A stretch of 64,000 nt of DNA from Balanoglossus misakiensis (Eukaryota; Animalia; Hemichordata), in contig CM082589.2 of NCBI GenBank assembly GCA_040954595.2, positions 7,003,186-7,067,185 of the forward strand. Direction: 5' to 3'. A program made the position numbers and the translations under genes. Numbering within the stretch: position 1 is the first letter of the stretch; every line of letters begins with the position of its first letter. The notes below the pieces were generated by a model. That model worked only from the letters and a program-made list of their open reading frames with translations. It was not told the origin of the DNA and did no database searches. Positions 36,379-61,290 of the stretch are shown here, piece by piece.

Positions 36379-36458
36379 CACGAGAATGCGTCAAGAAAAC
36401 GGTTTCATTTTCATGTGTGAAAGGCAATCCATTAAGATACCTAATGATGTTGACACTC

Positions 36459-38061
36459 TTAATGATTCATGAGTTGATGTCTTCTGGCAATAACCCCAGG
36501 TGCATTCACATGAACATTTGGGTATTGGTTGGGATCATCAATATGCTGTGGATCTAAATCAATATAGTTTTCCACATCATCATGATGGATAATACAGAGA
36601 TTGTGGAGAATACAACCAGAAATAATAGTCTCACACACATCTTCAGGACTATGCATAGGCAATTCTCTGAGCCTCCTAACACGACCAATTGATCGTTCAA
36701 CATTTTGACGGCAGGATGAAAAGACACGATTGAGCCTGCGCTGCTGAATGGTTAAAAAAATCCATTGTCTCTGAAGGGAGTACATGTAATAAGCCATTCC
36801 TATGGCGCGTAATCGTGTCAGCTCAAAGCGAATGCGGTGCACGTTCTCCGATTCAAAAGTGTCGACCTTCAAAGTTTATGCGGCGGAGTCCAATTCAAAT
36901 GCGTGTCAGCTCAAAACGAATGCTGTGTTGTCCGATTCAAAAGTGTCGACCTTTTAAGCTTATGCGGGGGAGTCCGATTCAAATGCGTGTCAGCTCAAAG
37001 CGAATGCGGTGTTGTCCGATTCAAAAGTGTCGACCTTCAAAGCTTATGCGGGGGAGTCCGATTCAAATGCGTGTCAGCTCAAAGCGAATGCGGTGTTGTC
37101 CGATTCAAAAGTGTCGACCTTCAAATCAAATGTGGTGCCTCAAAACGAATGCGTTTCACTCAAAAAGTGAGGTGTTAATTTTGGCCTCGATTACGCGCCA
37201 TAAATGCCCACTATACCTGGTAAACCACAATCAAGCTGAAAACTCTGTGAAATCTCCATCTGCCGCTCTTGTGCTGGCCACCTGATAACCTACAAATATT
37301 GATAATTCATTTGTCAACAATAATTTTTACACATAGCTGCAATTATGGCAAACATAAAATTGGACATTTCAGCTTGCTATACAGAGTGCAGTAGAAAAAA
37401 AATTGACACAGAGAACCATAATACTAAAAGAAAATGCTAAATGATAATTTTTAATTGTCCCCTTTATGTTCTTTGATAGCAATAATTAAACAGAGCTTGA
37501 AATTATGCATTACCAACTGTATTTTATTGAAATGTTAAAATATCTTTGTATATTCAAAAATAATCCATGAAGATAATCTAGAAAATGTACTTTACAATGT
37601 ACTTACATCTTTCATCACAGCAACGATAGTTTTTGTAACACGCTTTACTGATGAATGGACTGTCGATTTGGAGAGATTGAAAATGTGACCAACTTCTCTG
37701 ATGGATTCCTGGTTTACCATGTACCAAATCCATACCAATAATTGTTTTCTGGAGACACTTGAGGGCGGCCACCGCATTGTTCTGTTGTCAGTTTGTGGGC
37801 GATGCGACCCAGAACAAACGTGAAGATATCTTTGCAAATACGAAAATGGATGCAAAAATCTTGCAAAGAATACTGTGGTACGATATCTTCGGCAAATTTT
37901 TTTTATCTTCGGAACGTATTTTCGGCGCAAAAATAAACAGCTCAGAGAGGCAATGATGGCAGTATTTATCTGAAGTTGCAAAACCGCCGCAGAATCCAAA
38001 GATTCATCAAAATCCTCCAAAAAGTACGCAAAAACAAGAAATCTTCAAACTCAGACGCCAT
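36459..38061 (-). pseudogene. PIF/Harbinger (HARBI1-like, DDE_Tnp_4) transposase, frameshifted and core-deleted
   Basis: Exon 1 38061-37607: VPKIK/FAEDIVPQYSLQDFCIHFRICKDIF...QLLVWIWYMVNQESIREVGHIFNLSKSTVHSSVKRV, with a polyA frameshift. GT-AG intron 37606-37290. Exon 2 reads VIRWPAQERQMEISQSFQLDCGLPGIVG. C-terminus: PFRDNG/LTIQQRRLNRVFSSCRQNVERSIG...IISGCILHNLC. Confidence 0.88.
36801..37202. mobile_element. Short-TIR element carrying an 84-bp tandem array (~4 units)
   Basis: tatggcgcgtaatcg...cgattacgcgccata; units start at 36815, 36903, 36987 and 37071. Confidence 0.85.
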
Positions 38062-38258
38062 ATTTGTTTACATGGGTTGCTAGGTCTATACTTGTATCGT
38101 TCGTTTGAACTTCCAGCTCCCGGGTTACGCATGACTGGGATTACGTCAGCGCCAGCTACACTCGGGTAACTCGACTTAAGATAGACTGACCTTGTTTTTT
38201 TTTGGCAGCCATTTTTGTCCGCTACCTGTATAGGTGGTGACAGAGAGAAAGTGCTACG
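38062..38258. promoter_or_regulatory. Divergent transposase/sulfotransferase spacer with CRE-like and YY1-like motifs, repeated upstream of other copies
   Basis: TTACGTCA at 38141. Perfect TGACGTCA in homologous spacers at 41453, 49486, 50077, 53647, 58321 and 58909. GCCATTTT is also present. Function is inferred. Confidence 0.5.
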
Positions 38259-39503
38259 ATGAAAAGACAACATAAATATATCGCTCTCGTTGGTGTGGTT
38301 ACAGCGATTTTCGTGGTCACCGCCAAATTCAACATTTTTCAAGATTTACACGATGTGTTTAAACACAGCTCTAAGTCAGAAGGGACGGTTGGCGCGGACG
38401 ATCTCTTCGCAATGAAGAACAAAGAAGGCGCCACGCGAAAGAAGAATGTTTCAGATGTACAAAATATGGACGAAGGCAAAGGTAACGAATCAAGAATGGA
38501 GGCTCACCTACTACCGAAGCATTTAGAGAACGCTTATGGCGGCGTCCGCGCCGAAAATGTTACTTGTGAGATAAATAAGACAACGACCTGTGAAACGGTC
38601 TACGTACGACTTCACGGATGCCTGGCGGGAAAGCTCCTCGGCCGAGAACCGCTGCCGAATTTCTATCTGCTTGATGAGATAGACAAGGCGACCACGCAGC
38701 GCATTTATCGTCAATCCAGCGTCGGGTTCGTGCACGTGCCGAAAGCAGGGGGTACGTCCGTGGAAGCGCTTTTGAAACGAATTGCCAAACGTTATCGGTG
38801 GAATCGTATGCACATTATGCACTGTGCCGAGTTTTTCAACGCAGCAACCAAATTCCACGACTGGAATAAAAGGGTGCTTTTAACTTCGAAACGTACGTTT
38901 GGACTCCATAACTTCATGAATCCCTCTGTTCCTTTCTTCTACCTGACGTGGTTTAGACACCCCATCTCTCGTAGTATATCTGCCTATTTTTACGTCAAGA
39001 AAATGCGTCGAAAATCTCACAGCCTTTATCCAAAATACATATTTGACTCGAAAAATCTCACTGACTGTCTAGAAAAGTCGAAAGGCATCCAATTCCAAGA
39101 GTTTGACAACTACGCGGTGCGTTTGATGCAGTTTGGGGACTACCCGGTCATCGACACGACATTCGAAGACTGTTGCGGAGCCTACAAGGATGGTGTCACT
39201 CAAATAGCGGAAGTGACCGAGGAACACTACCTGGTTGCTAAGCAGAATCTGGAAACCAAGATGGCGTTCGTCGGTCTCTTGGAAGATTTCAAGACATCAC
39301 AGGACATGTTGTGCTTCATTTTAAAAACCCCTTGCCCGAAAGAAGACGTGCACGTGAACTCCAATAAACACCAACATGAACTGACCGACTTTGAGAGGAC
39401 GGAACTTGAGCGAAGAAACCACTGGGACATCAAATTGTACGAAGATGCAAAACGGATTTATGAAAAACAGAAAGCAAAATATTTGGAACTTATCCGTCAA
39501 TGA
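38259..39503 (+). CDS. Type II Golgi sulfotransferase (Sulfotransfer_2 / HS6ST-like), copy 1, catalytic type A
   Basis: 414 aa single-exon ORF. Basic N-tail plus signal anchor; 5'-PSB FVHVPKAGGTS; 3'-PB FRHPISRSISAYFY; AKQNL..MAFVGLLE and N.WDIKLYEDAK C-terminal motifs. Confidence 0.9.
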   Translation: MKRQHKYIALVGVVTAIFVVTAKFNIFQDLHDVFKHSSKSEGTVGADDLFAMKNKEGATRKKNVSDVQNMDEGKGNESRMEAHLLPKHLENAYGGVRAENVTCEINKTTTCETVYVRLHGCLAGKLLGREPLPNFYLLDEIDKATTQRIYRQSSVGFVHVPKAGGTSVEALLKRIAKRYRWNRMHIMHCAEFFNAATKFHDWNKRVLLTSKRTFGLHNFMNPSVPFFYLTWFRHPISRSISAYFYVKKMRRKSHSLYPKYIFDSKNLTDCLEKSKGIQFQEFDNYAVRLMQFGDYPVIDTTFEDCCGAYKDGVTQIAEVTEEHYLVAKQNLETKMAFVGLLEDFKTSQDMLCFILKTPCPKEDVHVNSNKHQHELTDFERTELERRNHWDIKLYEDAKRIYEKQKAKYLELIRQ

Positions 39504-40957
39504 AAAATTTCACAACAACGTTTTGATATTCAAATGTATACAAATCTTGAAATGTAGGGACTGATGGACTACTCAACAGTTAGAATATCGTCCTTTTCCT
39601 GAGTTTTATATAGGCCTACATGTTTTGGCTTACTCTTAATCAATAATGTTAAACAGAGAGATAAAACAGGATTTTGTTCTAGTATAATACTTAAAGACTG
39701 TGTGATGGTGTTACTTTTTCAGTTAGGGGGTCTAAAATATTGTGGAAATTGCCGAGTCGGCACTTTTCTTGCACTTCTAATGCTATGAGTTTTCCTATGG
39801 TGAAAATATCTGAACAATTCTATCAAAAAATCAAGCACGATGAGATTGACATAGTGTTTCTTTATTCTAATTTTTAATAATACTTCTCAACAGGGAAGGC
39901 GAGATTTAGATATCAGGAAGAACATTTCTGTCTCTTCAAAATATCGTTCCCATGACAATGTGACTTGAGGCCTTATAGTTGTGATTGTCTCCATATTTGG
40001 AGTGCGTGAGTATTTCTGCATAGAGTTAAAATGCTAAGCTTCAGTGTTGTTTGGGGGTCCATTGCATTTAACCACAGTTACAAGGAGACACTGTTCTTTG
40101 AATGTGGGGAGGGGCACTCTTATTAATTGCAATGTCTAGAAAGTAAATAAATGACAGAACTTCATGATCTCTACAGGCGATCTGTGCCGTACAGAATTTA
40201 TTTTCATGAGTGATGTGGTGTATTCTGCGGCAGAATTCTTTACTATCATCACTGACCTTGATTTGCCGCGCTGCTCAAGATGAAGGGTCGTAAAATTTAT
40301 AAGACGCAGTGTTCAGCGAACCCAGATATGGCCGTGGACAAACTGACGCAACCTTTGTTATGCAAAGTAGGGTCAAATCGGGTGATTCACCTGAGGTCGC
40401 GAGATCGCACAGGTAAATTTTGAAAATACTGCTGGCGATAACGAGAGTTTTTTCGCAATTTTTGTGGGTTCCAAAACATACTGACAATCAAATGGTGTGT
40501 TACTCTGACAATAGTTGGGAAAGATAGAAAAAGAACGTGCAAGAAAGTTGAAAAATGTACACGTTTCGGCGACCATATTTCGTCATTCATCAGTGGTTTA
40601 CCTGAGGTCGCGAGATCGCAGTAATAAATTGTGAAACACTGGCGATAGCGAGGGATACTGACAACTAAATGTTTTATTAGTCTGATAAAATGTGGGAAGG
40701 ATTATAAAATGACGTGCAAGAATGTTTTAAAATCCCCGCGTTTCGGCGATCATAAGTTAGCTCTAGCGTTCTTGGCTTTAGATGTTTACAAACAGAACGT
40801 AGTCCCACTTGCTTACTCATTTGCATAAATAGCCATGAAATACCGACAAAAATTATTTAATGGACACGTGACTGTATTTTATTGAAATGTTTAAATATCT
40901 TTGTATTCAAAAATAATCCATGAAGATAATCTAGAAAATGTACTTTACAATGTACTT

Positions 40958-41406
40958 ACATCTTCATCACAGCAATGTGACACGCTTTACTGATGAATGG
41001 ACTGTCGATTTGGAGAGATTGAAAATGTGACCAACTTCTCTGATGGATTCCTGGTTTACCATGTACCAAACCCATACCTATAATTGTTTTTTCTGGAGAC
41101 ACTTGAGGGCGGCCACCGCATTGTTCTATTGCCAGTTTGTGGGCGATGCGACCCAGAACAAACGTGAAGATATCTTTGCAAATACGAAAATGGATGCAAA
41201 AATCTTGCAAAGAATACTGTGGTACGATATCTTGGGCAAATTTTTTTTATCTTCGGAACGTATTTTCGGCGCAAAAATAAACAGCTCAGAGAGGCAATGA
41301 TGGCAGTATTTATCCGAAGTTGCAAAACTGCCGCAGAATCTAAAGATTCATCAAAATCCTCAAAAAAAGTACGCAAAAACAAGAAATCTTCAAACTCAGT
41401 CGCCAT
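40958..41406 (-). pseudogene. Harbinger transposase exon-1 fragment, copy 2
   Basis: Near-identical to 37607-38061, with frameshifts. Confidence 0.88.
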
Positions 41407-41606
41407 ATTTGTTTACATGGGTTGCTATACTACGCACGCTAACTAGATGGGATGACGTCAGCGCCAGCTACTCGAGTTCCCCACCAGTTGCCTCGTGTAA
41501 CTCGGACTTTAGACCTTGTGTTTATTTGCCAAGCGCAGCCATTTTTGTCCGCTACCTGTATAGGTGGTGGCAGGGCCAGTTCATGTGACAGAGAGAAAGT
41601 ACTACG

Positions 41607-42848
41607 ATGAAAAGACAACATAAATATATCGCTCTCGTTGGTGTGGTTACAGCGATTTTCGTGGTCACCGCCAAATTCAACATTTTTCAAGATTTACATG
41701 ATGTGTTTAAACACAGCTCTAAGTCAGAAGGGACGGGCGGCGCGGACGATCTCTTCGCAATGAGGAACGAAGAAGGCGCCACGCGAAAGAAGAATGTTTC
41801 AGATGTACAAAATATGGACGAAGGCAAAGGTAACGAATCAAGAATGGAGGCTCACCTACTACCGAAGCATTTAGAGAACGCTTATGGCGGCGTCCGCGCC
41901 GAAAATGTTACTTGTGAGATAAGTAAGACAACGGCCTGTGAAACGGTCTACGTACGACTTCACGGATGCCTTGCGGGAAAGCTCCTCGGCCGAGAACCGC
42001 TGCCGAATTTCTATCTGCTTGACGAGCTAGACAACGCGACCATGTACACTTATCGTCAATCCAGCGTCGGGTTCGTGCACCTGCCGAAAGCAGGGGGTAC
42101 GTCCGTGGAAGCGATTTTGAAACGAATTGCCAAACGTTATCGGTGGAATCGTATGCACATTCTGCACTGTGCCCAGTTTTTCAACGCAGCAACCAAAATC
42201 CACGACTGGGATAGAAATGTGCTATTAACTTCGAAACGTACGTTTGGACTCCATAACTTCATGAATCCCTCTGTTCCTTTCTTCTACCTGACGTGGTTTA
42301 GACACCCCATCTCTCGTATTGTATCTGCCTATTTTTACATCAAGAAAATGCGGCGCAAATCTCACAACCTTTATGCAAAATACATATTGGACTCGAAAAA
42401 TCTCACTGACTGTCTAGAAAAGTCGAAAGACTCCCACTTCCAAGAGTTCGACAACTTTGCGGTGCGTTTGATGCAGTTTGGGGACTACCCGGTCATCGAC
42501 ACGACATTCGAAGACTGTTGCGGAGCCTACACGGATGGTGTCACTCAAATAGCGGAAGTGACCGAGGAACACTACCTGGTTGCTAAGCAGAATCTGGAAA
42601 CCAAGATGGCGTTCGTCGGTCTCTTGGAAGATTTCAAGACATCACAGGACATGTTGTGTTTCATGTTACAAACCCCCTGCCTAAAAGAAGAGGTGCACGT
42701 GAACTCAAATAAACACCAACATGAACTGACCGACTTTGAGAGGACGGAACTTGAGCGAAGAAACCACTGGGACATCAAATTGTACGAAGATGCAAAACGG
42801 ATTTATGAAAAACAGAAAGCAAAATATTTGGAAATTATCCGTCAATGA
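41607..42848 (+). CDS. Sulfotransferase copy 2 (short stem, catalytic type B)
   Basis: 413 aa; HLPKAGGTS, FRHPISRIVSAYFY, KDSHFQEFDNFAVR. Confidence 0.9.
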   Translation: MKRQHKYIALVGVVTAIFVVTAKFNIFQDLHDVFKHSSKSEGTGGADDLFAMRNEEGATRKKNVSDVQNMDEGKGNESRMEAHLLPKHLENAYGGVRAENVTCEISKTTACETVYVRLHGCLAGKLLGREPLPNFYLLDELDNATMYTYRQSSVGFVHLPKAGGTSVEAILKRIAKRYRWNRMHILHCAQFFNAATKIHDWDRNVLLTSKRTFGLHNFMNPSVPFFYLTWFRHPISRIVSAYFYIKKMRRKSHNLYAKYILDSKNLTDCLEKSKDSHFQEFDNFAVRLMQFGDYPVIDTTFEDCCGAYTDGVTQIAEVTEEHYLVAKQNLETKMAFVGLLEDFKTSQDMLCFMLQTPCLKEEVHVNSNKHQHELTDFERTELERRNHWDIKLYEDAKRIYEKQKAKYLEIIRQ

Positions 42849-44825: not shown

Positions 44826-46169
44826 ATGAAAAGACCACGGAAATATATCGCTCTCGTTGGCGTGGTTATAGCGATTTTCGTGCTCACCGCCAAATTTGAC
44901 ATTTTCCGAGATTTACATGCAGTTAAATACAGCCCTACGGATGGGATGCGTGGTGCGGACAATCTCTTGACAATGAGAAACAAGGAAGGCGACACGCGAA
45001 AGGAGGGGAATGTTACAAATCTGTCACAGAAAGACGGTATTCTCGATCAAATCGGCGGTGGTATTCTCCAAACTGGGGATGTTTTGAGAGCAAACGAGAT
45101 CGCAGCGAACAATATATCAACAACGAATGTTTATAGTACGGAGGCAGGGAAAGTTAAGGAAACGAGAATCGAGACTGGTCTACCGAAGCATTTAGAGAAT
45201 GCTTATGGCGGCGTCCGCGCTGAAAACGTTCCTTGTAACGTAGAAAAGACAACGACCTGTGAAGCGGTCTACGTACGACTTCACGGATGCCTCGCTGGAA
45301 AGCTCCTCGGCCGAGAACCGCTGCCGAACTTCTACCTGCTTGATGAGATAGACAACGCTACCATGCACACTTACAGCCAATCCAGCGTCGGGTTCGTGCA
45401 CCTGCCGAAAGCAGGCGGTACGTCCGTGGAAGCGATTTTGAAAGAACTTGCTAAACGTCATCAATGGAAACATATGCACATTCTGCACTGTGCCCAGTTT
45501 TTCAGCGCTGCAACAACACTCCACGACTGGAACAGAAATGTGCTTTTAACTTCGAAACGTACGTTTGGACTCCATAACTTCATGAATCCATCAGTTCCTT
45601 TCTTCTACCTGACGTGGTTTAGACACCCCATCTCTCGTATTATATCTGCCTATTTTTACGTCAAGAAAATGCGGCACAAATCTCACAGCCTTTATGCAAA
45701 ATACATATTGGACTCGAAAAATCTCACTGACTGTCTAGAAAAGTCGAAAGACTCCCACTTCCAAGAGTTCGACAACTTTGCGGTGCGTTTGATGCAGTTT
45801 GGGGACTACCCGGTCATCGACACGACATTCGAAGACTGTTGCGGAGCCTACAAGGATGGTGTCACTCAAATAGCGGAAGTGACCGAGGAACACTACCTGG
45901 TTGCTAAGCAGAACCTGGAAACCAAGATGGCGTTCGTCGGTCTCTTGGAAGATTTCAAGACATCACAGGACATGTTGTGCTTCATGTTACAAACCCCCTG
46001 TCCGAAAGAAGAGGTGCACGTGAACTCCAATAAACACCAACATGAACTGACCGACTTTGAGAGGACGGAACTTGAGCGAAGAAACCACTGGGACATCAAA
46101 TTGTACGAAGATGCAAAACGGATTTATGAAAAACAGAAAGCAAAATATTTGGAAATTATCCGTCAATGA
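44826..46169 (+). CDS. Sulfotransferase copy 3 (long stem, catalytic type B, unique upstream)
   Basis: 447 aa; about 33 extra stem residues; same PAPS-binding motifs; no transposase fragment upstream. Confidence 0.9.
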   Translation: MKRPRKYIALVGVVIAIFVLTAKFDIFRDLHAVKYSPTDGMRGADNLLTMRNKEGDTRKEGNVTNLSQKDGILDQIGGGILQTGDVLRANEIAANNISTTNVYSTEAGKVKETRIETGLPKHLENAYGGVRAENVPCNVEKTTTCEAVYVRLHGCLAGKLLGREPLPNFYLLDEIDNATMHTYSQSSVGFVHLPKAGGTSVEAILKELAKRHQWKHMHILHCAQFFSAATTLHDWNRNVLLTSKRTFGLHNFMNPSVPFFYLTWFRHPISRIISAYFYVKKMRHKSHSLYAKYILDSKNLTDCLEKSKDSHFQEFDNFAVRLMQFGDYPVIDTTFEDCCGAYKDGVTQIAEVTEEHYLVAKQNLETKMAFVGLLEDFKTSQDMLCFMLQTPCPKEEVHVNSNKHQHELTDFERTELERRNHWDIKLYEDAKRIYEKQKAKYLEIIRQ

Positions 46170-46609
46170 AAAATTTCACAACAACGTTTTGATATTCAAA
46201 TTTATACAAATCTTGAAATGTAGGGACTGATGTTAAGCTGGTGGACTACTCAACAGTTAGAATATCGTCTTTTTCCTGAGTTTTATATAGGCCTACATGT
46301 TTTGGCTTACTCTTAATCAATAATGTTAAACAGAGAGAGAAAACAGTTTTTTTTTCTAGTATAATACTTAAAGACTGTGTGATGGTGTTACTTTTTCAGT
46401 TAGGGGGTCTCAAATATTGTGGAAATTGCTGAGTCGGCACTTTTCTTGCACTTCTAATGCTATGAGTTTTCCTATGGTGAAAATATCTGAACAATTCTAT
46501 CAAAAAATCAAGCACGATGAGATTGACAAAGTGTTTCTTTATTATAATTTAATAATACTCCTCAACAGGGAAGGCGAGATTTAGATACCAGGAAAAATAT
46601 TTCTGTCTC

Positions 46610-46842
46610 GCGGGAAAGCTCCTCGGCCGAGAACCGCTGCCGAATTTCTATCTGCTTGACGCGCTAGACAACGCAACCACGCAGACGTGCACGCGAACTC
46701 AAATAAACACCAACATGAACTGACCGACTTTGAGAGGACGGAACTTGAGCGAAGAAACCACTGGGACATCAAACTATATGAAGATGCAAAACGGACTTAT
46801 GAAAAACAGAAAGCAAAATATGTGGAAATTATCCGTCAATGA
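46610..46842 (+). pseudogene. Internally deleted sulfotransferase fragment
   Basis: AGKLLGREPLPNFYLLD segment joined directly to the NSNKHQHEL...IRQ* end. Confidence 0.88.
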
Positions 46843-46922
46843 AAAACTTCATAGCGATATTTGGATATTGAATTGAACACGGGTGAAACACCATCAACCC
46901 GAAACTTTCACTGTCCGTTTTA

Positions 46923-47028
46923 GGGACCGTTCAGTTTTTACGGCTGGGAGGGGGGGGGGGGCGGCCTGATTTTGAAAACCGATGACACAAACTTGCCGCC
47001 CCCCCGGCCGTAAAAACTGAACGGTCCC
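46923..47028. mobile_element. Tourist/Harbinger-type MITE
   Basis: TTA|gggaccgttcagtttttacggc...gccgtaaaaactgaacggtccc|TTA. Confidence 0.85.
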
Positions 47029-48131
47029 TTAGTTCAATGTTCTGAACATGCTCACGTTGCCATTCAGTTCAGTTCTGCAGTCAACCTGTTATGCTTCTTC
47101 TCTGGAAGGATTATATAGAAATTTCATCTAGTTCTGTATTATAAAAACTTGATTCAGAGAAAATAAATACTTGAATAAATGACATCAAAACTTCAGGCAA
47201 CGATCTCGTCATGTACACGCTCTCCCCCCCCCCCCCCGTCATTCGTTGTTTCGTAGTCACGCCATACATCGACAGTGATAAGCTCTGTCCGTTCATTACA
47301 CTAGAAATTACACGCATAGTTCTGTCTGTCCGAAGAAAGAGTCTCATATATGGTAGTCCGTTTTAAAGGCACGTAAGCTGCAACTGGATAAAAAATCAAT
47401 GTTTTACATAATCTCATATATGCTTTTAATTATATCTATTAAATGCTATTTCATGATAATATATCAAGCCCAACACTTATTTATGACAAAATGGCCAAAA
47501 ATTAAAGAAAAACGAAAATTCCTGAAATTTTTTAAAAAGTGCAATATTGCAATGAAAAATGAAAATCTGATGTCTCAGTGGTGTACATTTACTTCCATGA
47601 GCTATAGTGGATGAGATCTTGTTTTGTTTATGAAGTTTCACAACCCGAAATGCGACATTTTCATTGTTTCTTTCATTTTCCCACGGTGGCGGCCATAATC
47701 GCTTGCGGCAAAGCTTTATTATTTATCTGGTTAAAACTTGCATATGCACTCATATTTAGGGTTTATAATGCTTGTGTATAGTTCACTGCCTTTATCTGCA
47801 TGGACTAATGGTAGTACAGTTTGAAACAAAAATTATGGGTCCAGATAGGACTTATGCTCGTAGATGGTCTCACTGGAAACTGCCTGGGATAACTGACTTT
47901 TGTTTTCCGGATGTATGGCCCCCTTATCCCAAATGGCCTCGCATGCTATTTCTGACTCCCCTCCCTGGGATTGGGTTCGATCCCTTGTATTCTTTTCCAT
48001 GGAGGTGGCGCTATTCTCCCATGGGTCGGCAATGGCACATGGAGACCCCAGTGCTGGGCATGGCATTATACGTTTCCTTGCCTCCCCCCTTGGACTGTTC
48101 TAAATGGTCAGTGAAAATAACTGTTTCCTCC

Positions 48132-48791: not shown

Positions 48792-49623
48792 GTAACTGTC
48801 TGATGAATAGTCAGTACGGGGGGAATTTCCCGTTTTTGTTACCCCAGAGATTCAACTTCAATTCAAAAGGCAGGAAAAGTTTCTGCGCATGCGCGGAACG
48901 ATTGTCCGAAACACGTTTTTCTGGAGTGAGGGTCGCTAAAAATAGAACCACAGACAAATTAGGCGGTCATCTTTTGGAATCAGGAGCCAGGGCACGATTA
49001 GTTGACCTCTAACCTCAGTGACCGCGCGTACATCCTTATGCGCATAAATCAGCGTTTGCGTCGGGGTTCAGAGGTGGCCTGTAAATACCGAGAGAGTCAT
49101 TCTTCAGACCCCACACTAGGCCATTTTTCTTCGACATGAGCCCCCTTTCACGCGAATAAAAATCTCCAATATCACCATCATTATCATAAACATGAGAACC
49201 ATATTACGGCTATGCGCTACCCGCAAACCATCATCAGTATTCACTGACCTTGATTTGCCGCGTTGCTCAAGATGAAGGGTCGTAAAATTTATAAGACGCA
49301 GTGTTCAGCGAACGTTAACCCAGACATGGCCGCTCATTGGACAAACTGACGCAACCTTTGTTATGCAAAGTAGGGTCAAATCGGGTGACTTGTTAAAGAA
49401 ACTTTCAACTAATTAAACTTCATTAAAGATTTTAATGTCGTCTTTAACTCTCAGCTCCCGGGTTACGCATGCTAACTAGATGGGATGACGTCAGCACCAG
49501 CTACTCGAGTTCCCCACCAGTTGCTTAAGACCTTGTGTTTATTTGCCAAGCGCAGCCATTTTTGTCCGCTACCTGTATAGGTGGTGGCAGGGCCAGTTCA
49601 TGTGACAGAGAGAAAGTGCTACG

Positions 49624-49995
49624 ATGAAAAGACAACATAAATATATCGCTCTCGTTGGTGTGGTTACAGCGATTTTCGTGGTCACCGCCAAATTCAACAT
49701 TTTTCAAGATTTACATGATGTGTTTAAACGCGATGCGACCCAGAACAAACGTGAAGATATCTTTGCAAATACGAAAATGGATGCAAAAATCTTGCAAAGA
49801 ATGTATTGTGGTACGATATCTTCGGCATTTTTTTTTTATCTTCGGAACGTATTTTCGGCGCAAAAATAAACAGCTCAGAGAGGCAATGATGGCAGTATTT
49901 ATCCGAAGTTGCAAAACTGCCGCAGAATCTAAAGATTCATCAAAATCCTCAAAAAAAGTACGCAAAAACAAGAAATCTTCAAACTCAGACGCCAT
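49624..49995. pseudogene. Sulfotransferase 5' stub (35 codons, +) fused to a transposase fragment (-)
   Basis: Junction gatgtgtttaaac|gcgatgcgacccag near 49730. Confidence 0.88.
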
Positions 49996-50209
49996 ATTTG
50001 TTGGGTTGCTAGGCCTATACTTGTATCGTTCGTTTTAACTCCCAGCTCCCGGGTTACGCATGCTAACTAGATGGGATGACGTCAGCGCCAGCTACTCGAG
50101 TTCCCCACCAGTTGCTTTAGACCTTTATTTGCCAAGCGCAGCCATTTTTGTCCGCTACCTGTATAGGTGGTGGCAGGGCCAGTTCATGTGACAGAGAGAA
50201 AGTACTACG

Positions 50210-51454
50210 ATGAAAAGACAACATAAATATATCGCTCTCGTTGGTGTGGTTACAGCGATTTTCGTGGTCACCGCCAAATTCAACATTTTTCAAGATTTAC
50301 ATGATGTGTTTAAACACAGCTCTAAGTCAGAAGGGACGGGCGGCGCGGACGATCTCTTCGCAATGAAGAACAAAGAAGGCGCCACGCGAAAGAAGAATGT
50401 TTCAGATGTACAATATATGGACGAAGGCAAAGGTAACGAATCAAGAATGGAGGCTCACCTACTACCGAAGCATTTAGAGAACGCTTATGGCGGCGTCCGC
50501 GCCGAAAATGTTACTTGTGAGATAAATAAGACAACGACCTGTGAAACGGTCTACGTACGACTTCACGGATGCCTGGCGGGAAAGCTCCTCGGCCGAGAAC
50601 CGCTGCCGAATTTCTATCTGCTTGATGAGATAGACAAGGCGACCACGCAGCGCATTTATCGTCAATCCAGCGTCGGGTTCGTGCACGTGCCGAAAGCAGG
50701 GGGTACGTCCGTGGAAGCGCTTTTGAAACGAATTGCCAAACGTTATCGGTGGAATCGTATGCACATTATGCACTGTGCCGAGTTTTTCAACGCAGCAACC
50801 AAATTCCACGACTGGAATAAAAGTGTGCTTTTAACTTCGAAACGTACGTTTGGACTCCATAACTTCATGAATCCCTCTGTTCCTTTCTTCTACCTGACGT
50901 GGTTTAGACACCCCATCTCTCGTAGTATATCTGCCTATTTTTACGTCAAGAAAATGCGTCGAAAATCTCACAGCCTTTATCCAAAATACATATTTGACTC
51001 GAAAAATCTCACTGACTGTCTAGAAAAGTCGAAAGGCATCCAATTCCAAGAGTTTGACAACTACGCGGTGCGTTTGATGCAGTTTGGGGACTACCCTGTC
51101 ATCGACACGACATTCGAAGACTGTTGCGGAGCCTACACGGATGGTGTCACTCAAATAGCGGAAGTGACCGAGGAACACTACCTGGTTGCTAAGCAGAATC
51201 TGGAAACCAAGATGGCGTTCGTCGGTCTCTTGGAAGATTTCAAGACATCACAGGACATGTTGTGCTTCATTTTAAAAACCCCTTGCCCGAAAGAAGACGT
51301 GCACGTGAACTCCAATAAACACCAACATGAACTGACCGACTTTGAGAGGACGGAACTTGAGCGAAGAAACCACTGGGACATCAAATTGTACGAAGATGCA
51401 AAACGGATTTATGAAAAACAGAAAGCAAAATATTTGGAACTTATCCGTCAATGA
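50210..51454 (+). CDS. Sulfotransferase copy 4, type A
   Basis: 414 aa, intact motifs. Confidence 0.9.
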   Translation: MKRQHKYIALVGVVTAIFVVTAKFNIFQDLHDVFKHSSKSEGTGGADDLFAMKNKEGATRKKNVSDVQYMDEGKGNESRMEAHLLPKHLENAYGGVRAENVTCEINKTTTCETVYVRLHGCLAGKLLGREPLPNFYLLDEIDKATTQRIYRQSSVGFVHVPKAGGTSVEALLKRIAKRYRWNRMHIMHCAEFFNAATKFHDWNKSVLLTSKRTFGLHNFMNPSVPFFYLTWFRHPISRSISAYFYVKKMRRKSHSLYPKYIFDSKNLTDCLEKSKGIQFQEFDNYAVRLMQFGDYPVIDTTFEDCCGAYTDGVTQIAEVTEEHYLVAKQNLETKMAFVGLLEDFKTSQDMLCFILKTPCPKEDVHVNSNKHQHELTDFERTELERRNHWDIKLYEDAKRIYEKQKAKYLELIRQ

Positions 51455-52509
51455 AAAATTTCACAACAACGTTTTGATATTCAAATGTATACAAATCTTG
51501 AAATGTAGGGACTGATGTTAAGCTGGTGGACTACTCAACAGTTAGAATATCGTCCTTTTCCTGAGTTTTATATAGGCCTACATGTTTTGGCTTACTCTTA
51601 ATCAATAATGTTAAACAGAGAGATAAAACAGGATTTTGTTCTAGTATAATACTTAAAGACTGTGTGATGGTGTTACTTTTTCAGTTAGGGGGTCTAAAAT
51701 ATTGTGGAAATTGCTGAGTCGGCACTTTTCTTGCACTTCTAATGCTATGAGTTTTCCTGTGGTGAAAATATCTGAACAATTCTATCAAAAAATCAAGCAC
51801 GATGAGATTGACATAGTGTTTCTTTATTATAATTTAATAATACTCCTCAACAGGGAAGGTGAGATTTAGATATCAGGAAGAACATTTCTGTCTCTTCAAA
51901 ATATCGTTCCCATGACAATGTGACTTGAGGCCTTATAGTTGTGATTGTCTCCATATTTGGAGTGCGTGAGTATTTCTGCATAGAGTTAAAATGCTAAGCT
52001 TCAGTGTTGTTTGGGGTCCATTGCATTTAACCACTGTTACAAGGAGACACTGTTCTTCGAATGTGGGGAGGGGCACTCTTATTAATTGCAATGTCTAGAA
52101 AGTAAATAAATATGACAGAACATCATGATCTCTACAGGCGATCTGTGCCGTACAGAATTTATTTTCATGAGTGATGTGGTGTATTCTGCGGCAGAATTAT
52201 TTACTATCTATCACGTGATCTGGCCATGTGACCCATAGCGTTGTCATTTCCAGGTGACGGGCAAGCAATATTTCGGCATTCAGTAAAAGTTTTTCCGAGT
52301 ATGTTTTTACTTTAGAACTGCCAGACACGTAACATGTATCAGGTATGGTGTCTCGTTCAGCCTCATGGTGTTTCGTCTGTACAGTCTTTGGCTGCACCAC
52401 CATGTTGAAGTTGCCCGTCATCTGGAAATTTGAATGCGAACGTAACTGCCGCCTGAGCGCATCTGACGTCATTTGATATCGAAGAAATACCTTCGTGACG
52501 CGTCTTGCT

Positions 52510-52644
52510 TAGTCAATTTTCGCGTTCTCTTATTTCATTCACTGCATCGTATCTTCAAAAACAATTTACGCGACTCTTTATTTTCACGCTATTTTGGCGT
52601 ATTTGGCGAAAATTAATTGCTCGCGAAAATAAAGTGTTTTACAG
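52510..52644. mobile_element. MITE family A, one-ended fragment
   Basis: Ends ctcgcgaaaataaagtgttttacag|TA. Confidence 0.78.
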
Positions 52645-53102
52645 TATGCACGTGACCTTTCACCTTCACCACTATTCACAGTGCATATATAGCATGTATA
52701 GGTTTGTTCATTTCCTTTCACGGTGTTATTGTAATGTTTGACAATGGTTTGTCGGTGTGGGTGTGAATACAGCGCCTACCCAGCGATTCAAATCACAATA
52801 GTAGCTATTTGCTGTACTTCTCATATTTTCTTGTGGGCTGTGTGAAAAAGACCCCGCTAGCGACGCGACGGTGCAACATATGACCTAAAGATGTACGGTC
52901 AGTAAAATTTGAAAGTATTGTCATTTTTTTAATTGTGGATTTTTGGATTCTCCTTTGTATGTATAATGAAAATCCGTAATAAAATATAGGGGTCACCGAG
53001 CTTGTTTTTGAAATACAGAGCCATGAATTTAGTCGATAATAGAAGAAAACTGCTGACTCAGCATGAAGATAATCTAGAAAATGTACTTTACAATGTACTT
53101 AC

Positions 53103-53560
53103 ATCTTTCATCACAGCAATGATAGTTTTTGTGACACGCTTTACTGATGAATGGACTGTCGATTTGGAGAGATTGAAAATGTGACCAACTTCTCTGATGG
53201 ATTCCTGGTTTACCATGTACCAAACCCATACCTATAATTGTTTTTTCTGGAGACACTTGAGGGCGGCCACCGCATTGTTCTATTGCCAGTTTGTGGGCGA
53301 TGCGACCCAGAACAAACGTGAAGATATCTTTGCAAATACGAAAATGGATGCAAAAATCTTGCAAAGAATACTGTGGTACGATATCTTGGGCAAATTTTTT
53401 TTATCTTCGGAACGTATTTTCGGCGCAAAAATAAACAGCTCAGAGAGGCAATGATGGCAGTATTTATCCGAAGTTGCAAAACTGCCGCAGAATCTAAAGA
53501 TTCATCAAAATCCTCAAAAAAAGTACGCAAAAACAAGAAATCTTCAAACTCAGACGCCAT
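53103..53560 (-). pseudogene. Harbinger transposase exon-1 fragment upstream of sulfotransferase copy 5
   Basis: MASEFEDFLFLRTFF...; includes the gtaagt donor. Confidence 0.88.
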
Positions 53561-53766
53561 ATTTGTTTACATGGGTTGCTAGGCCTATACATTGTACTTG
53601 TATCGTTCGTTTGACCTTCAAGTTCCCGGGTTACGCATGACTGGGATGACGTCAGCGCCAGCTACTCGGCCGGGTAACTCGACTTGAGATAGACTGACCT
53701 TGTTTTTTTTTGGCAGCCATTTTTGTCCGCTACCTGTATAGGTGGTGACAGAGAGAAAGTGCTACG

Positions 53767-55011
53767 ATGAAAAGACAACATAAATATATCGCTCTCGTTG
53801 GTGTGGTTACAGCGATTTTCGTGGTCACCGCCAAATTCAACATTTTTCAAGATTTACATGATGTGTTTAAACACAGCTCTAAGTCAGAAGGGACCGTCGG
53901 CGCGGACGATCTCTTCGCAATGAAGAACAAAGAAGGCGCCAGGCGAAAGAAGAATGTTTCAGATGTACAAAATATGGACGAAGGCAAAGGTAACGAATCA
54001 AGAATGGAGGCTCACCTACTACCGAAGCATTTAGAGAACGCTTATGGCGGCGTCCTCGCCGAAAATGTTACTTGTGAGATAAATAAGACAACGACCTGTG
54101 AAACGGTCTACGTACGACTTCACGGATGCCTGGCGGGAAAGCTCCTCGGCCGAGAACCGCTGCCGAATTTCTATCTGCTTGATGAGATAGACAAGGCGAC
54201 CACGCAGCGCATTTATCGTCAATCCAGCGTCGGGTTCGTGCACGTGCCGAAAGCAGGGGGTACGTCCGTGGAAGCGCTTTTGAAACGAATTGCCAAACGT
54301 TATCGGTGGAATCGTATGCACATTATGCACTGTGCCGAGTTTTTCAACGCAGCAACCAAATTCCACGACTGGAATAAAAGTGTGCTTTTAACTTCGAAAC
54401 GTACGTTTGGACTCCATAACTTCATGAATCCCTCTGTTCCTTTCTTCTACCTGACGTGGTTTAGACACCCCATCTCTCGTAGTATATCTGCCTATTTTTA
54501 CGTCAAGAAAATGCGTCGAAAATCTCACAGCCTTTATCCAAAATACATATTTGACTCGAAAAATCTCACTGACTGTCTAGAAAAGTCGAAAGGCATCCAA
54601 TTCCAAGAGTTTGACAACTACGCGGTGCGTTTGATGCAGTTTGGGGACTACCCGGTCATCGACACGACATTCGAAGACTGTTGCGGAGCCTACACGGATG
54701 GTGTCACTCAAATAGCGGAAGTGACCGAGGAACACTACCTGGTTGCTAAGCAGAATCTGGAAACCAAGATGGCGTTCGTCGGTCTCTTGGAAGATTTCAA
54801 GACATCACAGGACATGTTGTGCTTCATTTTAAAAACCCCTTGCCCGAAAGAAGACGTGCACGTGAACTCCAATAAACACCAACATGAACTGACCGACTTT
54901 GAGAGGACGGAACTTGAGCGAAGAAACCACTGGGACATCAAATTGTACGAAGATGCAAAACGGATTTATGAAAAACAGAAAGCAAAATATTTGGAACTTA
55001 TCCGTCAATGA
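53767..55011 (+). CDS. Sulfotransferase copy 5, type A
   Basis: 414 aa, intact motifs. Confidence 0.9.
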   Translation: MKRQHKYIALVGVVTAIFVVTAKFNIFQDLHDVFKHSSKSEGTVGADDLFAMKNKEGARRKKNVSDVQNMDEGKGNESRMEAHLLPKHLENAYGGVLAENVTCEINKTTTCETVYVRLHGCLAGKLLGREPLPNFYLLDEIDKATTQRIYRQSSVGFVHVPKAGGTSVEALLKRIAKRYRWNRMHIMHCAEFFNAATKFHDWNKSVLLTSKRTFGLHNFMNPSVPFFYLTWFRHPISRSISAYFYVKKMRRKSHSLYPKYIFDSKNLTDCLEKSKGIQFQEFDNYAVRLMQFGDYPVIDTTFEDCCGAYTDGVTQIAEVTEEHYLVAKQNLETKMAFVGLLEDFKTSQDMLCFILKTPCPKEDVHVNSNKHQHELTDFERTELERRNHWDIKLYEDAKRIYEKQKAKYLELIRQ

Positions 55012-58000: not shown

Positions 58001-60286
58001 CCAATATCACCATCATTATCATAAACATGAGAACCATATTACGGCTATGCGCTACCCGCAAACCATCATCAGTATTCACTGACCTTGATTTGCCGCGCTG
58101 CTCAAGATGAAGGGTCGTAAAATTTATAAGACGCAGTGTTCAGCGAACGTTAACCCAGACATGGCCGCTCATTGGACAAACTGACGCAACCTTTGTTATG
58201 CAAAGTAGGGTCAAATCGGGTGACTTGTTAAAGAAACTTTCAACTAATTAAACTTCATTAAAGATTTTAATGTCGTCTTTAACTCTCAGCTCCCGGGTTA
58301 CGCATGCTAACTAGATGGGATGACGTCAGCACCAGCTACTCGAGTTCCCCACCAGTTGCTTAAGACCTTGTGTTTATTTGCCAAGCGCAGCCATTTTTGT
58401 CCGCTACCTGTATAGGTGTGGCAGGGCCAGTTCATGTGACAGAGAGAAAGTGCTACGATGAAAAGACAACATAAATATATCGCTCTCGTTGGTGTGGTTA
58501 CAGCGATTTTCGTGGTCACCGCCAAATTCAACATTTTTCAAGATTTACATGATGTGTTTAAACGCGATGCGACCCAGAACAAACGTGAAGATATCTTTGC
58601 AAATACGAAAATGGATGCAAAAATCTTGCAAAGAATGTATTGTGGTACGATATCTTCGGCATTTTTTTTATCTTCGGAACGTATTTTCGGCGCAAAAATA
58701 AACAGCTCAGAGAGGCAATGATGGCAGTATTTATCCGAAGTTGCAAAACTGCCGCAGAATCTAAAGATTCATCAAAATCCTCAAAAAAAGTACGCAAAAA
58801 CAAGAAATCTTCAAACTCAGACGCCATATTTGTTGGGTTGCTAGGCCTATACTTGTATCGTTCGTTTTAACTCCCAGCTCCCGGGTTACGCATGCTAACT
58901 AGATGGGATGACGTCAGCGCCAGCTACTCGAGTTCCCCACCAGTTGCTTTAGACCTTTATTTGCCAAGCGCAGCCATTTTTGTCCGCTACCTGTATAGGT
59001 GGTGGCAGGGCCAGTTCATGTGACAGAGAGAAAGTACTACGATGAAAAGACAACATAAATATATCGCTCTCGTTGGTGTGGTTACAGCGATTTTCGTGGT
59101 CACCGCCAAATTCAACATTTTTCAAGATTTACATGATGTGTTTAAACACAGCTCTAAGTCAGAAGGGACGGGCGGCGCGGACGATCTCTTCGCAATGAAG
59201 AACAAAGAAGGCGCCACGCGAAAGAAGAATGTTTCAGATGTACAATATATGGACGAAGGCAAAGGTAACGAATCAAGAATGGAGGCTCACCTACTACCGA
59301 AGCATTTAGAGAACGCTTATGGCGGCGTCCGCGCCGAAAATGTTACTTGTGAGATAAATAAGACAACGACCTGTGAAACGGTCTACGTACGACTTCACGG
59401 ATGCCTGGCGGGAAAGCTCCTCGGCCGAGAACCGCTGCCGAATTTCTATCTGCTTGATGAGATAGACAAGGCGACCACGCAGCGCATTTATCGTCAATCC
59501 AGCGTCGGGTTCGTGCACGTGCCGAAAGCAGGGGGTACGTCCGTGGAAGCGCTTTTGAAACGAATTGCCAAACGTTATCGGTGGAATCGTATGCACATTA
59601 TGCACTGTGCCGAGTTTTTCAACGCAGCAACCAAATTCCACGACTGGAATAAAAGTGTGCTTTTAACTTCGAAGCGTACGTTTGGACTCCATAACTTCAT
59701 GAATCCCTCTGTTCCTTTCTTCTACCTGACGTGGTTTAGACACCCCATCTCTCGTAGTATATCTGCCTATTTTTACGTCAAGAAAATGCGTCGAAAATCT
59801 CACAGCCTTTATCCAAAATACATATTTGACTCGAAAAATCTCACTGACTGTCTAGAAAAGTCGAAAGGCATCCAATTCCAAGAGTTTGACAACTACGCGG
59901 TGCGTTTGATGCAGTTTGGGGACTACCCGGTCATCGACACGACATTCGAAGACTGTTGCGGAGCCTACAAGGATGGTGTCACTCAAATAGCGGAAGTGAC
60001 CGAGGAACACTACCTGGTTGCTAAGCAGAATCTGGAAACCAAGATGGCGTTCGTCGGTCTCTTGGAAGATTTCAAGACATCACAGGACATGTTGTGCTTC
60101 ATTTTAAAAACCCCTTGCCCGAAAGAAGACGTGCACGTGAACTCCAATAAACACCAACATGAACTGACCGACTTTGAGAGGACGGAACTTGAGCGAAGAA
60201 ACCACTGGGACATCAAATTGTACGAAGATGCAAAACGGATTTATGAAAAACAGAAAGCAAAATATTTGGAACTTATCCGTCAATGA
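55012..60286 (+). repeat. Segmental duplication, copy 2
   Basis: Matches 46170-51454. Includes deleted fragment 55452-55684, MITE 55765-55863 and stub/transposase fusion 58458-58827. Confidence 0.93.
59042..60286 (+). CDS. Sulfotransferase copy 6, type A
   Basis: 414 aa, intact motifs. Confidence 0.9.
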   Translation: MKRQHKYIALVGVVTAIFVVTAKFNIFQDLHDVFKHSSKSEGTGGADDLFAMKNKEGATRKKNVSDVQYMDEGKGNESRMEAHLLPKHLENAYGGVRAENVTCEINKTTTCETVYVRLHGCLAGKLLGREPLPNFYLLDEIDKATTQRIYRQSSVGFVHVPKAGGTSVEALLKRIAKRYRWNRMHIMHCAEFFNAATKFHDWNKSVLLTSKRTFGLHNFMNPSVPFFYLTWFRHPISRSISAYFYVKKMRRKSHSLYPKYIFDSKNLTDCLEKSKGIQFQEFDNYAVRLMQFGDYPVIDTTFEDCCGAYKDGVTQIAEVTEEHYLVAKQNLETKMAFVGLLEDFKTSQDMLCFILKTPCPKEDVHVNSNKHQHELTDFERTELERRNHWDIKLYEDAKRIYEKQKAKYLELIRQ

Positions 60287-61270: not shown

Positions 61271-61290
61271 CATTTTTAGTAACAATGCAT

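What the first reader, a model, noticed from the sequence alone, without database searches (positions are those of the whole stretch)
36459..60286. Sulfotransferase array amplified as a 'Harbinger transposase head + ~200-bp spacer + enzyme' cassette
Seen: five of six intact sulfotransferases start 197-214 bp from the divergent ATG of a dead Harbinger transposase (38061/38259, 41406/41607, 49995/50210, 53560/53767, 58827/59042). The spacer carries a CRE palindrome (TGACGTCA; TTACGTCA in copy 1) and GCCATTTT. Only the leftmost unit retains the rest of the element (transposase 3' part and Myb/SANT gene). The 447-aa copy 3 shares only ~21 nt of upstream sequence with the others. Inference: a stem-shortened daughter of copy 3 came to lie beside, or was captured within, the element end. 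It may have adopted the transposase promoter in reverse and then been tandemly amplified with it. This would be a transposon-promoter-driven expansion of glycan or metabolite sulfation enzymes.
Basis: partly seen in the sequence, partly recalled or inferred. Interest (0 to 1): 0.85.

Follow-up and report, generated by a model that had tools for sequence, protein, structure and literature searches.

The report
Dead transposon front heads enzyme array
In what is likely an acorn worm, five tandem copies of a predicted sugar-sulfating enzyme gene each start about 200 bases from the front end of one dead jumping gene, and about half of that gap matches the jumping gene's own upstream DNA, which likely serves as the copies' promoter, although expression is untested.

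Summary
The anatomy is confirmed. Five of six intact sulfotransferase ORFs start 197-214 nt from the divergent ATG of a dead Harbinger transposase. Contigs of the same organism show other, about 3.5% diverged copies of this Harbinger family. One of them matches the spacer for 103 nt upstream of the transposase ATG, through the CRE, so that half of the spacer is element DNA. All five heads share one frameshift that the family contigs lack: one insertion, later copied by unequal crossing-over and deletion, not by transposition. The short-stem gene is several times older than the element (dS about 0.39 to copy 3). Its stem has the usual length for the family, and copy 3's is the long one. The family is multi-copy in three other acorn worms. 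No enzyme-carrying family copy was seen. New here: the spacer is an indel hot spot (11 indels of 5-34 nt). Promoter use is inferred from the layout only. The distal 60 nt are of unknown origin and hold acceptor-like AGs. The closest known cases are Cyp6g1/Accord and AMY1/ERV.

The parts
33271..33417 (+). Possible left-side piece of the element (membership uncertain); holds a 9-nt stretch (33286-33294) that is inverted in the family contig's continuation on the transposase side
   Evidence: X3 record 16; X3 loose end, compared by eye
34227..35319 (+). Remnant of the Myb/SANT partner gene (residues about 160-309), broken by frameshifts and a 614-nt insertion at 34312-34925
   Evidence: Ptychodera protein P0025, Myb_DNA-bind_4 E 3e-17; tblastn 75-80% identity; joint 34311-34926
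35817..36390 (.). Nested repeats, including an element with 155-nt inverted arms (35940-36378), absent from a family contig
36459..36799 (-). Transposase 3' part (residues about 269-381 of the Ptychodera relative)
   Evidence: 80% identity
36814..37125 (.). Tandem repeat standing where the middle of the DDE domain is missing
37203..38061 (-). Transposase exon 1 (38061-37595, frameshifted), intron, and start of exon 2 (37289-37203)
38062..38258 (.). Spacer 1 (type A): about 38062-38177 element-like, with TTACGTCA at 38141; 38178-38237 of unknown origin, with the 31-nt GCCATTTT block at 38205-38235; 38238-38258 shared with copy 3
38259..39503 (+). Sulfotransferase copy 1, 414 aa, intact single ORF
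40871..41406 (-). Transposase head 2
41407..41606 (.). Spacer 2 (type B), CRE at 41453
41607..42848 (+). Copy 2, 413 aa; short-type 5' part, mosaic with copy 3 in the 3' part
44826..46169 (+). Copy 3, 447 aa, long stem, own unrelated upstream DNA (TATA-like word at 44740)
   Evidence: (X1 record 8)
45137..52214 (.). Block repeated at 53973-61035 (98.8% identical over 46610-52214); copy 5 switches from copy-4-like to copy-3-like 361-419 nt after its stop
46604..46875 (+). Internally deleted enzyme fragment (repeated at 55446-55717)
49438..49729 (+). Spacer (CRE at 49486) plus first 106 nt of the enzyme, without a transposase head; repeated at 58273-58563
49730..49995 (-). Transposase head 4
49996..50209 (.). 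Spacer 4 (type B); matches a diverged family contig to 50098, through the CRE at 50077-50084
   Evidence: X3 record 17
50210..51454 (+). Copy 4, 414 aa, intact
53062..53560 (-). Transposase head 5
53561..53766 (.). Spacer 5 (type A), CRE at 53647
53767..55011 (+). Copy 5, 414 aa, intact
58564..58827 (-). Transposase head 6
58828..59041 (.). Spacer 6 (type B, identical to spacer 4), CRE at 58909
59042..60286 (+). Copy 6, 414 aa, intact
61282..62094 (+). Copy 7: no 5' part, internal stop, altered end (pseudogene)

Best explanation
One dead Harbinger transposon lies head to head with a likely older, short-stem sulfotransferase gene; its upstream DNA, with a CRE word, fills about half of the 200-base gap and likely acts in reverse as the gene's proximal promoter, and gene plus transposon front were then likely copied together by unequal crossing-over and local deletion rather than by transposition. 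Shown: the layout, the element origin of at least 103 nt of the spacer, one shared frameshift in all five heads, internal and unequal left ends of the heads, and a crossover in the 3' flank of copy 5. Inferred: the order of events (gene first, element later), loss of the gene's earlier upstream DNA at a junction 21-80 nt before the ATG, and promoter use. The enzymes are predicted Golgi type II membrane sulfotransferases acting on glycans; the substrate is unknown. The spacer collects small deletions far faster than its neighbours, which would fit repeated breakage and end-joining in open promoter DNA or at an element end.
For: Element origin: a diverged family contig (X3 record 17) aligns from the transposase head through the spacer to 50098. 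None of its 22 placed substitutions falls between 50040 and 50098, and no base is missing over the CRE. The first 30 of its 95 further letters resemble the type A spacer by eye. Family copies elsewhere lack two of the window's nested insertions and differ by 69 of 1947 letters. Single origin: all 5 heads share a +1 frameshift near codon 55 that the family contigs lack. Not transposed: the heads end at three different places inside the transposase and copy 5 is a recombinant. Promoter by elimination: copies 2, 4, 5 and 6 share no upstream DNA beyond 264-536 nt of head plus the spacer, and the short copies keep only 21 nt of copy 3's upstream. Signs of use: 5 of 5 short ORFs are intact while their heads took at least 6 further frame-breaking indels, 2 outside base runs (p about 0.005 at an equal rate). 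The 20 residue differences between the copy-4 type and copies 2/3 are conservative (mean BLOSUM62 0.55 against -0.40; p 0.006). Precedents: outward-reading promoters of Mutator (10.1101/2023.06.05.543741, abstract) and Accord plus duplication at Cyp6g1 (PMC2891717, abstract and part of the Discussion).
Against: Transcription, start sites and strand were not observed. The distal 60 nt, including the GCCATTTT block, are of unknown origin and contain acceptor-like AGs (pyrimidine share 0.62-0.76 against 0.57-0.76 for six acceptors of the neighbouring gene), so they could be host intron or host core promoter. Survival of the two motifs is not significant: 11 random indels of these lengths miss both 8-mers with probability 0.13, and copy 1 has a substitution in the CRE. 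The same 24 codon differences are 20 nonsynonymous to 4 synonymous, no different from neutral (p 0.34). Their timing is unknown (outgroups place 7 on the copy-4 side, 3 on the other, 10 unresolved). Absence of a stop among 20 missense changes has probability 0.32 under neutrality. Copies 1, 4, 5 and 6 are about 99% identical and gene conversion is evident, so intact ORFs are weak evidence. The spacer has no TATA box. The element evidence rests on one contig of one low-depth run, probably from the sample the window came from; an insertion inside the CRE cannot be excluded because 7 of 19 indel rows were not shown.
Confidence: 0.5

Rival explanations
1. Passive passenger: the element landed at the gene's own promoter or first intron. 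The distal 60-80 nt are host DNA (core promoter or splice acceptor) and do the work. The transposon front was copied along only because it lies 200 nt from the ATG.
For: The short gene predates the element, so it had its own control region. Acceptor-like AGs lie at -25/-43 and -50/-68. The family contig gave no second aligned piece over the GCCATTTT block (weak, since the tool also missed a short piece). Two spacer fragments lack the head altogether. The family is multi-copy in other acorn worms. Two unchecked notes of this scan report Harbinger copies beside host promoters.
Against: The distal block has no counterpart upstream of copy 3 or elsewhere in the window. Copies 2, 4, 5 and 6 have no shared upstream exon or promoter beyond the head. 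The family contig runs on for 95 nt, about to where the spacer would end, so the whole spacer may be element DNA.
Confidence: 0.27
2. Young, silent or redundant duplicates: the element displaced the short gene's promoter, the cassette copies are barely expressed, and copy 3 carries the function. The array is a rearrangement hot spot decaying by birth and death.
For: Neutral-looking 20:4 ratio; five broken fragments in the array; near identity of copies 1, 4, 5 and 6. Sites where copy 3 alone differs show clear constraint (14:16, p 0.0002). Copy 3 has its own upstream with a TATA-like word.
Against: No frameshift or stop in 5 of 5 short ORFs against at least 6 in the heads; conservative replacements; both PAPS-binding motifs kept in 6 of 6 intact copies.
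Confidence: 0.17
3. Pack-TIR capture: the enzyme gene lies inside a Harbinger derivative and was spread by transposition.
For: The element's right end was not located, so the junction could lie inside the element.
Against: No inverted end downstream of four copies tested (the left end may be lost, so this is weak). All copies are adjacent. The heads break inside the transposase. No diverged enzyme 5' end accompanies the family contigs among those shown.
Confidence: 0.04
4. Part of the array (the 7-kb repeat with copies 5 and 6) is two haplotypes assembled in tandem.
For: 98.8% identity over 5.6 kb; copies 4 and 6 have identical spacers; contigs of the type A spacers have low depth in X1 (13-41 against 63 for copy 3).
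Against: Copy 5 has its own spacer, seen in contigs of X1 and X2, and a clean crossover structure. The copy 4/6 spacer contig has about twice the depth of the copy 3 contig in X1 (136 against 63), though not in X2 (304 against 304); depth is only a rough hint. Copies 1, 2 and 4 would remain in any case.
Confidence: 0.07

Closest known systems
Drosophila Cyp6g1 Accord alleles (PMC2891717; abstract and part 1 of 2 of the Discussion read)
   Same: A transposon fragment upstream of an enzyme gene is duplicated together with the gene; further insertions and copy changes follow.
   Different: Accord is an LTR fragment acting as an enhancer, with shown expression and phenotype. Here it is the transposase-side upstream DNA of a DNA transposon, in reverse, reaching to within 21-80 nt of the ATG, in five copies, with no expression data.
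Primate amylase locus, gamma-actin-ERV-AMY1 segment (PMC12363942; passages read)
   Same: An inserted element upstream of an existing paralog is duplicated with it, with later partial deletion of the element in some copies.
   Different: Retroviral element with tissue-specific expression studied; that paper argues the ERV only helped subfunctionalisation. Here a Harbinger and no tissue data.
Outward-reading promoters of maize Mutator (10.1101/2023.06.05.543741; abstract read)
   Same: A DNA transposon end can start transcripts into the adjacent gene (20 of 33 alleles in that paper).
   Different: Different superfamily, fresh single insertions, no amplification of the fusion; activity measured there, inferred here.
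Animal Pack-TIRs, Ssk-FB4 (PMC8277862; abstract and section 10 read)
   Same: [quoted passage not shown]
   Different: Pack-TIRs have transposon sequence on both sides and multicopy ones spread by transposition; here only one side, and copies are tandem recombinants.
Autonomous PIF/Harbinger elements (PMC9710019 and 10.64898/2026.05.26.728016; passages read)
   Same: DDE_Tnp_4 transposase plus Myb/SANT gene, here convergent; close Ptychodera relatives of both proteins.
   Different: Both genes are broken and no TIR pair or target duplication was found.
Heparan sulfate 6-O- and 2-O-sulfotransferases (PDB 5T03/5T05, 4NDZ, 3F5F)
   Same: Sulfotransfer_2 family, best sequence and fold matches, PAPS-binding motifs, N-terminal membrane anchor.
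   Different: Only 15-18% identity; separate clade found in acorn worms and an Oscarella sponge; acceptor-side residues differ.

Membership tests
PIF/Harbinger element (dead copy) | DDE_Tnp_4 transposase gene | tested here: met
   3' piece hits DDE_Tnp_4 below the cut-off (E 4e-4); 80% identical to a Ptychodera protein that passes it (E 2e-32); pieces map over residues 1-181 and 269-381
PIF/Harbinger element (dead copy) | Adjacent Myb/SANT gene | tested here: met
   0 of 7 window pieces hit a Myb family on their own, but two pieces are 75-80% identical to P0025, which has Myb_DNA-bind_4 at E 3e-17
PIF/Harbinger element (dead copy) | Terminal inverted repeats | tested here: inconclusive
   No inverted match above the shuffle level between 32400-33450 and five spacers or four 3' flanks; the left end may be deleted; one 9-nt inverted match is seen only through a family contig
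PIF/Harbinger element (dead copy) | 3-bp TWA target-site duplication | not testable with these tools
   Ends not located; no whole genome held
PIF/Harbinger element (dead copy) | Dispersed related copies | tested here: met
   Contigs 1.6-4.8% diverged that lack nested insertions and the shared frameshift; their places in the genome are unknown
Pack-TIR | Host sequence flanked by transposon sequence on both sides | tested here: not met
   No transposase or Myb match downstream of any enzyme copy except the next head; no inverted end in four flanks
Pack-TIR | Multicopy spread by transposition | tested here: not met
   Copies are adjacent recombinants with internal breakpoints; no diverged enzyme 5' end among the contigs shown (17 of 59 pieces shown)
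Transposon-derived promoter | Proximal upstream DNA derived from the element | tested here: met
   At least 103 nt including the CRE
Transposon-derived promoter | Transcription starts in or depends on the element DNA | not testable with these tools
   Needs RNA start-site data or a reporter assay; none could be run
Golgi Sulfotransfer_2 enzyme | Pfam PF03567 above cut-off, 5'-PSB and 3'-PB motifs | tested here: met
   34-36 bits against cut-off 22 in 3 of 3 intact copies scanned; HxPKAGGTS and RHPISRxxS in 6 of 6 (motif roles recalled)
Golgi Sulfotransfer_2 enzyme | Single N-terminal membrane anchor | tested here: met
   19-residue hydropathy peak 2.1-2.4 at residue 8, best later window 0.8-0.9 (copies 1 and 3)
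Heparan sulfate 6-O-sulfotransferase (HS6ST) | Orthology-level similarity and the Trp-x-His after the 3'-PB motif (role recalled) | tested here: not met
   17-18% identity in the fold match; the profile has Tyr where 5T03 has His
Heparan sulfate 6-O-sulfotransferase (HS6ST) | 6-O-sulfation of heparan sulfate | not testable with these tools
   Needs an enzyme assay

The most novel reading that the evidence does not exclude
The Harbinger's transposase promoter, read backwards, has wholly replaced the host promoter of a glycan sulfotransferase and puts five copies with a changed catalytic domain under CRE control. The same element end is a recurrent break site, possibly cut by transposase from related copies with an intact frame, which both reshapes the promoter (11 indels that spare the two core blocks) and seeds the duplications: a transposon end that supplies the promoter and the instability of one host gene array.
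Probability: 0.15. Interest if true: 0.72.

Novelty: new variant of a known kind. Interest (0 to 1): 0.44.

Why it matters
Transposon fragments upstream of duplicated enzyme genes are known for retroelements (Cyp6g1, AMY1). A case in which the transposase-side control region of an animal DNA transposon sits in reverse within 21-80 nt of the start codon and is copied five times would be a compact natural allelic series: five spacers that differ by small deletions, one paralog with its own upstream DNA, and free family copies as the ancestral state. It makes two questions directly testable: whether Harbinger promoters work in both directions in animals, and why this 200-nt stretch collects indels at about one per substitution or more. 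If the copies prove silent, it is an ordinary young gene array with a transposon passenger.

Tried and rejected
No whole genome is held, so TIRs, target duplication and synteny could not be looked up. No RNA holder listed; this says nothing on expression. TIR search inside the window found nothing above shuffles. A possible extension of homology between copy 3's upstream and the spacer beyond 21 nt, seen by eye, was not significant. The distal spacer block has no match elsewhere in the window above shuffles (8 shuffles each). Motif survival as evidence of selection was rejected (p 0.13). Positive selection in the catalytic domain was not shown: copy 1 against copy 2 gives dN/dS 1.17 over residues 151-300 on 5 synonymous changes, and conversion blurs the lineages. 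Contig depth was used only as a rough hint; it is inconsistent between X1 and X2. The protein atlas gave no answer. Look-ups of earlier findings by place and sequence were empty. Literature searches (listings and starts of abstracts only): hemichordate + sulfotransferase + expansion (13 listed of 19) and acorn worm + sulfotransferase (9 of 11) showed no title on this family; Harbinger + promoter + bidirectional + transposase (9 of 9) showed none on a reverse Harbinger promoter; transposon-derived promoter + tandem duplication + gene family + DNA transposon gave 0. The library lacks most subscription papers, and no supplements were read; hemichordate genome supplements may list this gene family.
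Full report
Setting. The window is animal DNA. It starts with an NCOA6-like ORF and holds exons of a kinase-like gene at about 26-29 kb that I read as NRBP from recall. No whole genome is held. Of 22 homologues of the enzyme, 19 are named from three acorn worms (10 Ptychodera flava, 6 Saccoglossus kowalevskii, 3 Glandiceps talaboti; 39-50% identity). The other 3 appear to be from Oscarella sponges (2 looked up; the third shares a transcript label). Both transposon proteins have their closest relatives in Ptychodera. The source is therefore likely another acorn worm (inference).

Six intact single-ORF genes, five divergent transposase starts, gaps of 197, 200, 214, 206 and 214 nt, the CRE in 4 of 5 spacers with a variant in copy 1, and GCCATTTT in 5 of 5 are all as described. 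Copy 3 shares 21 nt upstream and nothing significant beyond.

The element. The transposase pieces map to residues 1-181 and 269-381 of a 384-aa Ptychodera protein with DDE_Tnp_4. A tandem repeat stands where the middle is missing. The partner gene matches residues 160-309 of a Ptychodera Myb/SANT protein. This is the two-gene layout of PIF/Harbinger elements (PMC9710019, passages). No TIR pair was found. Contigs of three DNA runs of one sample show related copies that lack two of the nested insertions (24 of 4233 pieces shown). Six such pieces, picked by me as family-type, differ from the window by 69 of 1947 letters, 3.5%.

Where the spacer comes from. I laid the same runs on head 4, spacer 4 and the start of copy 4. 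One 389-nt contig of run X3 carries variants in the transposase head that it shares with deeper contigs of X1 and X2. It aligns on through the spacer to 50098, 103 nt upstream of the transposase ATG. All 22 of its placed substitutions are in the rows shown and none lies between 50040 and 50098; 2 further letters are unplaced, and 7 of 19 indel rows were not shown. So the CRE at 50077-50084 is most likely present in the family copy. The first 30 of its 95 further letters resemble the type A spacer by eye, which would extend element origin to about 116 nt in copy 1. They end in a 9-nt stretch that is inverted at 33286-33294, which could be a subterminal motif (Harbinger3_DR's Myb protein binds such a motif; PMC9710019, passage) or chance. 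The remaining 60 nt are unresolved. At the enzyme's 5' end the depth in X1 (311) equals one short-type contig plus the copy 3 contig, so no diverged enzyme start accompanies the family among what was shown.

One insertion, then recombination. All 5 heads carry the same +1 frameshift near codon 55; family contigs in X1 and X3 are one letter shorter there. The heads stop at three different internal points (equivalent to 37516, 37566 and 37799). Copy 5 is copy-4-like through its ORF and turns copy-3-like 361-419 nt after the stop. Copy 2 is short-type at the 5' end and shares many sites with copy 3 further on. These are the marks of unequal crossing-over, conversion and deletion (inference from standard models), not of cut-and-paste.

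Order of events. Over residues 1-90, where no conversion is visible, copy 1 and copy 3 differ at 17.5 of 58 synonymous sites (dS 0.39, 95% range 0.22-0.65). The element differs from its family by 3.5%. Even if all of that arose in the window's copy, the short lineage is at least three times older at the low end of the range and about five times at the point estimate. The 5'-PSB motif lies 157-158 residues from the start in the short copies, 129-185 (median 151) in 13 homologues, and 191 in copy 3 (6 of 19 acorn worm proteins dropped as partial or lacking the motif, and the 3 sponge ones not counted). Copy 3's stem has an internal 24-nt duplication. Copy 3 is therefore more likely lengthened than the others shortened. 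The tree shows separate expansions in Ptychodera (clades of 5 and 3) and Saccoglossus (3 and 2), with the window's copies as their own clade. Six Ptychodera members share one longest-contig length and three another. Expansion is thus usual for this family; I could not check those loci for transposons.

An indel hot spot. Copies 2 and 4 differ in the spacer by 1 substitution and 5 indels of 5-34 nt; copies 2 and 5 differ in 258 nt of head by 1 substitution and no gap, yet by 8 gaps of 3 nt or more in the spacer. I counted by hand 11 events of 5-34 nt among the spacers against 2 in about 880 nt of head and 3' flank (p about 3e-6 if rates were equal; conversion in the flanks could inflate this). 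The 8 clean events have summed microhomology 14 against 5.9 for random placement (p 0.008); 3 complex events were left out. This would fit end-joining at repeated breaks. That all 11 miss both motifs has chance 0.13, so it is no proof of selection.

Does it act as promoter? Not shown. For: copies 2, 4, 5 and 6 share nothing upstream but head and spacer, and all 5 short ORFs are intact while the heads took at least 6 more frame-breaking indels. The 20 residue differences between the copy-4 type and copies 2/3 are conservative (p 0.006). Against: the same sites are 20 nonsynonymous to 4 synonymous, as neutral evolution would give; the private differences among copies 1, 4, 5 and 6 (5 synonymous of 11) are not significant (p 0.08); the copies are young; the spacer has no TATA box while copy 3 has a TATA-like word at -86; and AGs at -25/-43 and -50/-68 have pyrimidine tracts like the neighbouring gene's acceptors.

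The enzyme. A hydrophobic N-terminal segment, a low-confidence stem and a confident catalytic domain (mean pLDDT 74) give a predicted type II Golgi enzyme. The best sequence and fold matches are heparan sulfate 6-O- and 2-O-sulfotransferases at 15-18% identity (7 of at least 500 fold matches at E up to 0.001). It works like a Golgi glycan sulfotransferase but is not an HS6ST member on the features tested; a glycan acceptor is more likely than a small metabolite (inference from topology).

Comparison and verdict. A transposon piece upstream of an enzyme gene, duplicated with it, is known from Cyp6g1/Accord (PMC2891717, abstract and part 1 of 2 of the Discussion) and AMY1/ERV (PMC12363942, passages). 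Outward promoters of a DNA transposon are known from Mutator (10.1101/2023.06.05.543741, abstract). Pack-TIRs (PMC8277862, abstract and section 10) differ in having element DNA on both sides. My searches (listings only) showed no report of this family's array or of a reverse Harbinger promoter, but the library is partial. This is a new variant of a known kind: the structure is real, the spacer is at least half element DNA, and its use as promoter is about even odds. Interest 0.44.

Noticed in passing
window 38062-38258, 41407-41606, 49996-50209, 53561-53766, 58828-59041: The spacers carry 11 indels of 5-34 nt, with more microhomology than chance, while the adjacent head, ORF start and 3' flank carry almost none.
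   Followed up: partly
window 38259-39503 and 50210-51454 against 41607-42848 and 44826-46169: Two catalytic-domain types coexist; where copies 2 and 3 agree against copy 4, 20 of 24 codon differences change the residue, with a cluster at residues 276-285. This could be two specificities kept apart despite conversion.
   Followed up: partly
proteins P0020-P0022, P0028: Outside acorn worms the family was found at strong scores only in what appear to be Oscarella sponges: a patchy distribution, though the word-based search is limited.
   Followed up: no
window 48132-48851 (-) and about 56964-57682 (-): A 239-codon open frame rich in Pro, Ser and Tyr with no Pfam hit, broken in its second copy; an overlapping 119-codon frame lies on the + strand. 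Possibly a piece of another repeat.
   Followed up: partly
window 35858-36378: Nested palindromic repeats with 155-nt arms and very high contig depth: an abundant MITE-like family inserted between the two Harbinger genes.
   Followed up: no
window 13676-18004, 30388-30613, 52515-52650: At least six copies of a roughly 200-nt palindromic repeat, 76-91% alike.
   Followed up: no
window 25025-25380 and 29448-29804; 26551-26675 and 28600-28724; 28081-28269 and 62944-63133: Further repeat pairs in and after the kinase-like gene, two of them inverted, 84-97% alike.
   Followed up: no
window 38259-39503, 44826-46169 against 20000-29000: CpG observed/expected is 1.2-1.3 in the enzyme ORFs and 0.5 in the neighbouring gene and the 3' flank, which suggests the enzyme genes are unmethylated in the germ line.
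   Followed up: no
window 3-5006 (-) and about 26340-28900 (+): NCOA6-like ORF of at least 1668 codons and NRBP-like exons (name recalled) flank the array on the left and could anchor a synteny check.
   Followed up: partly
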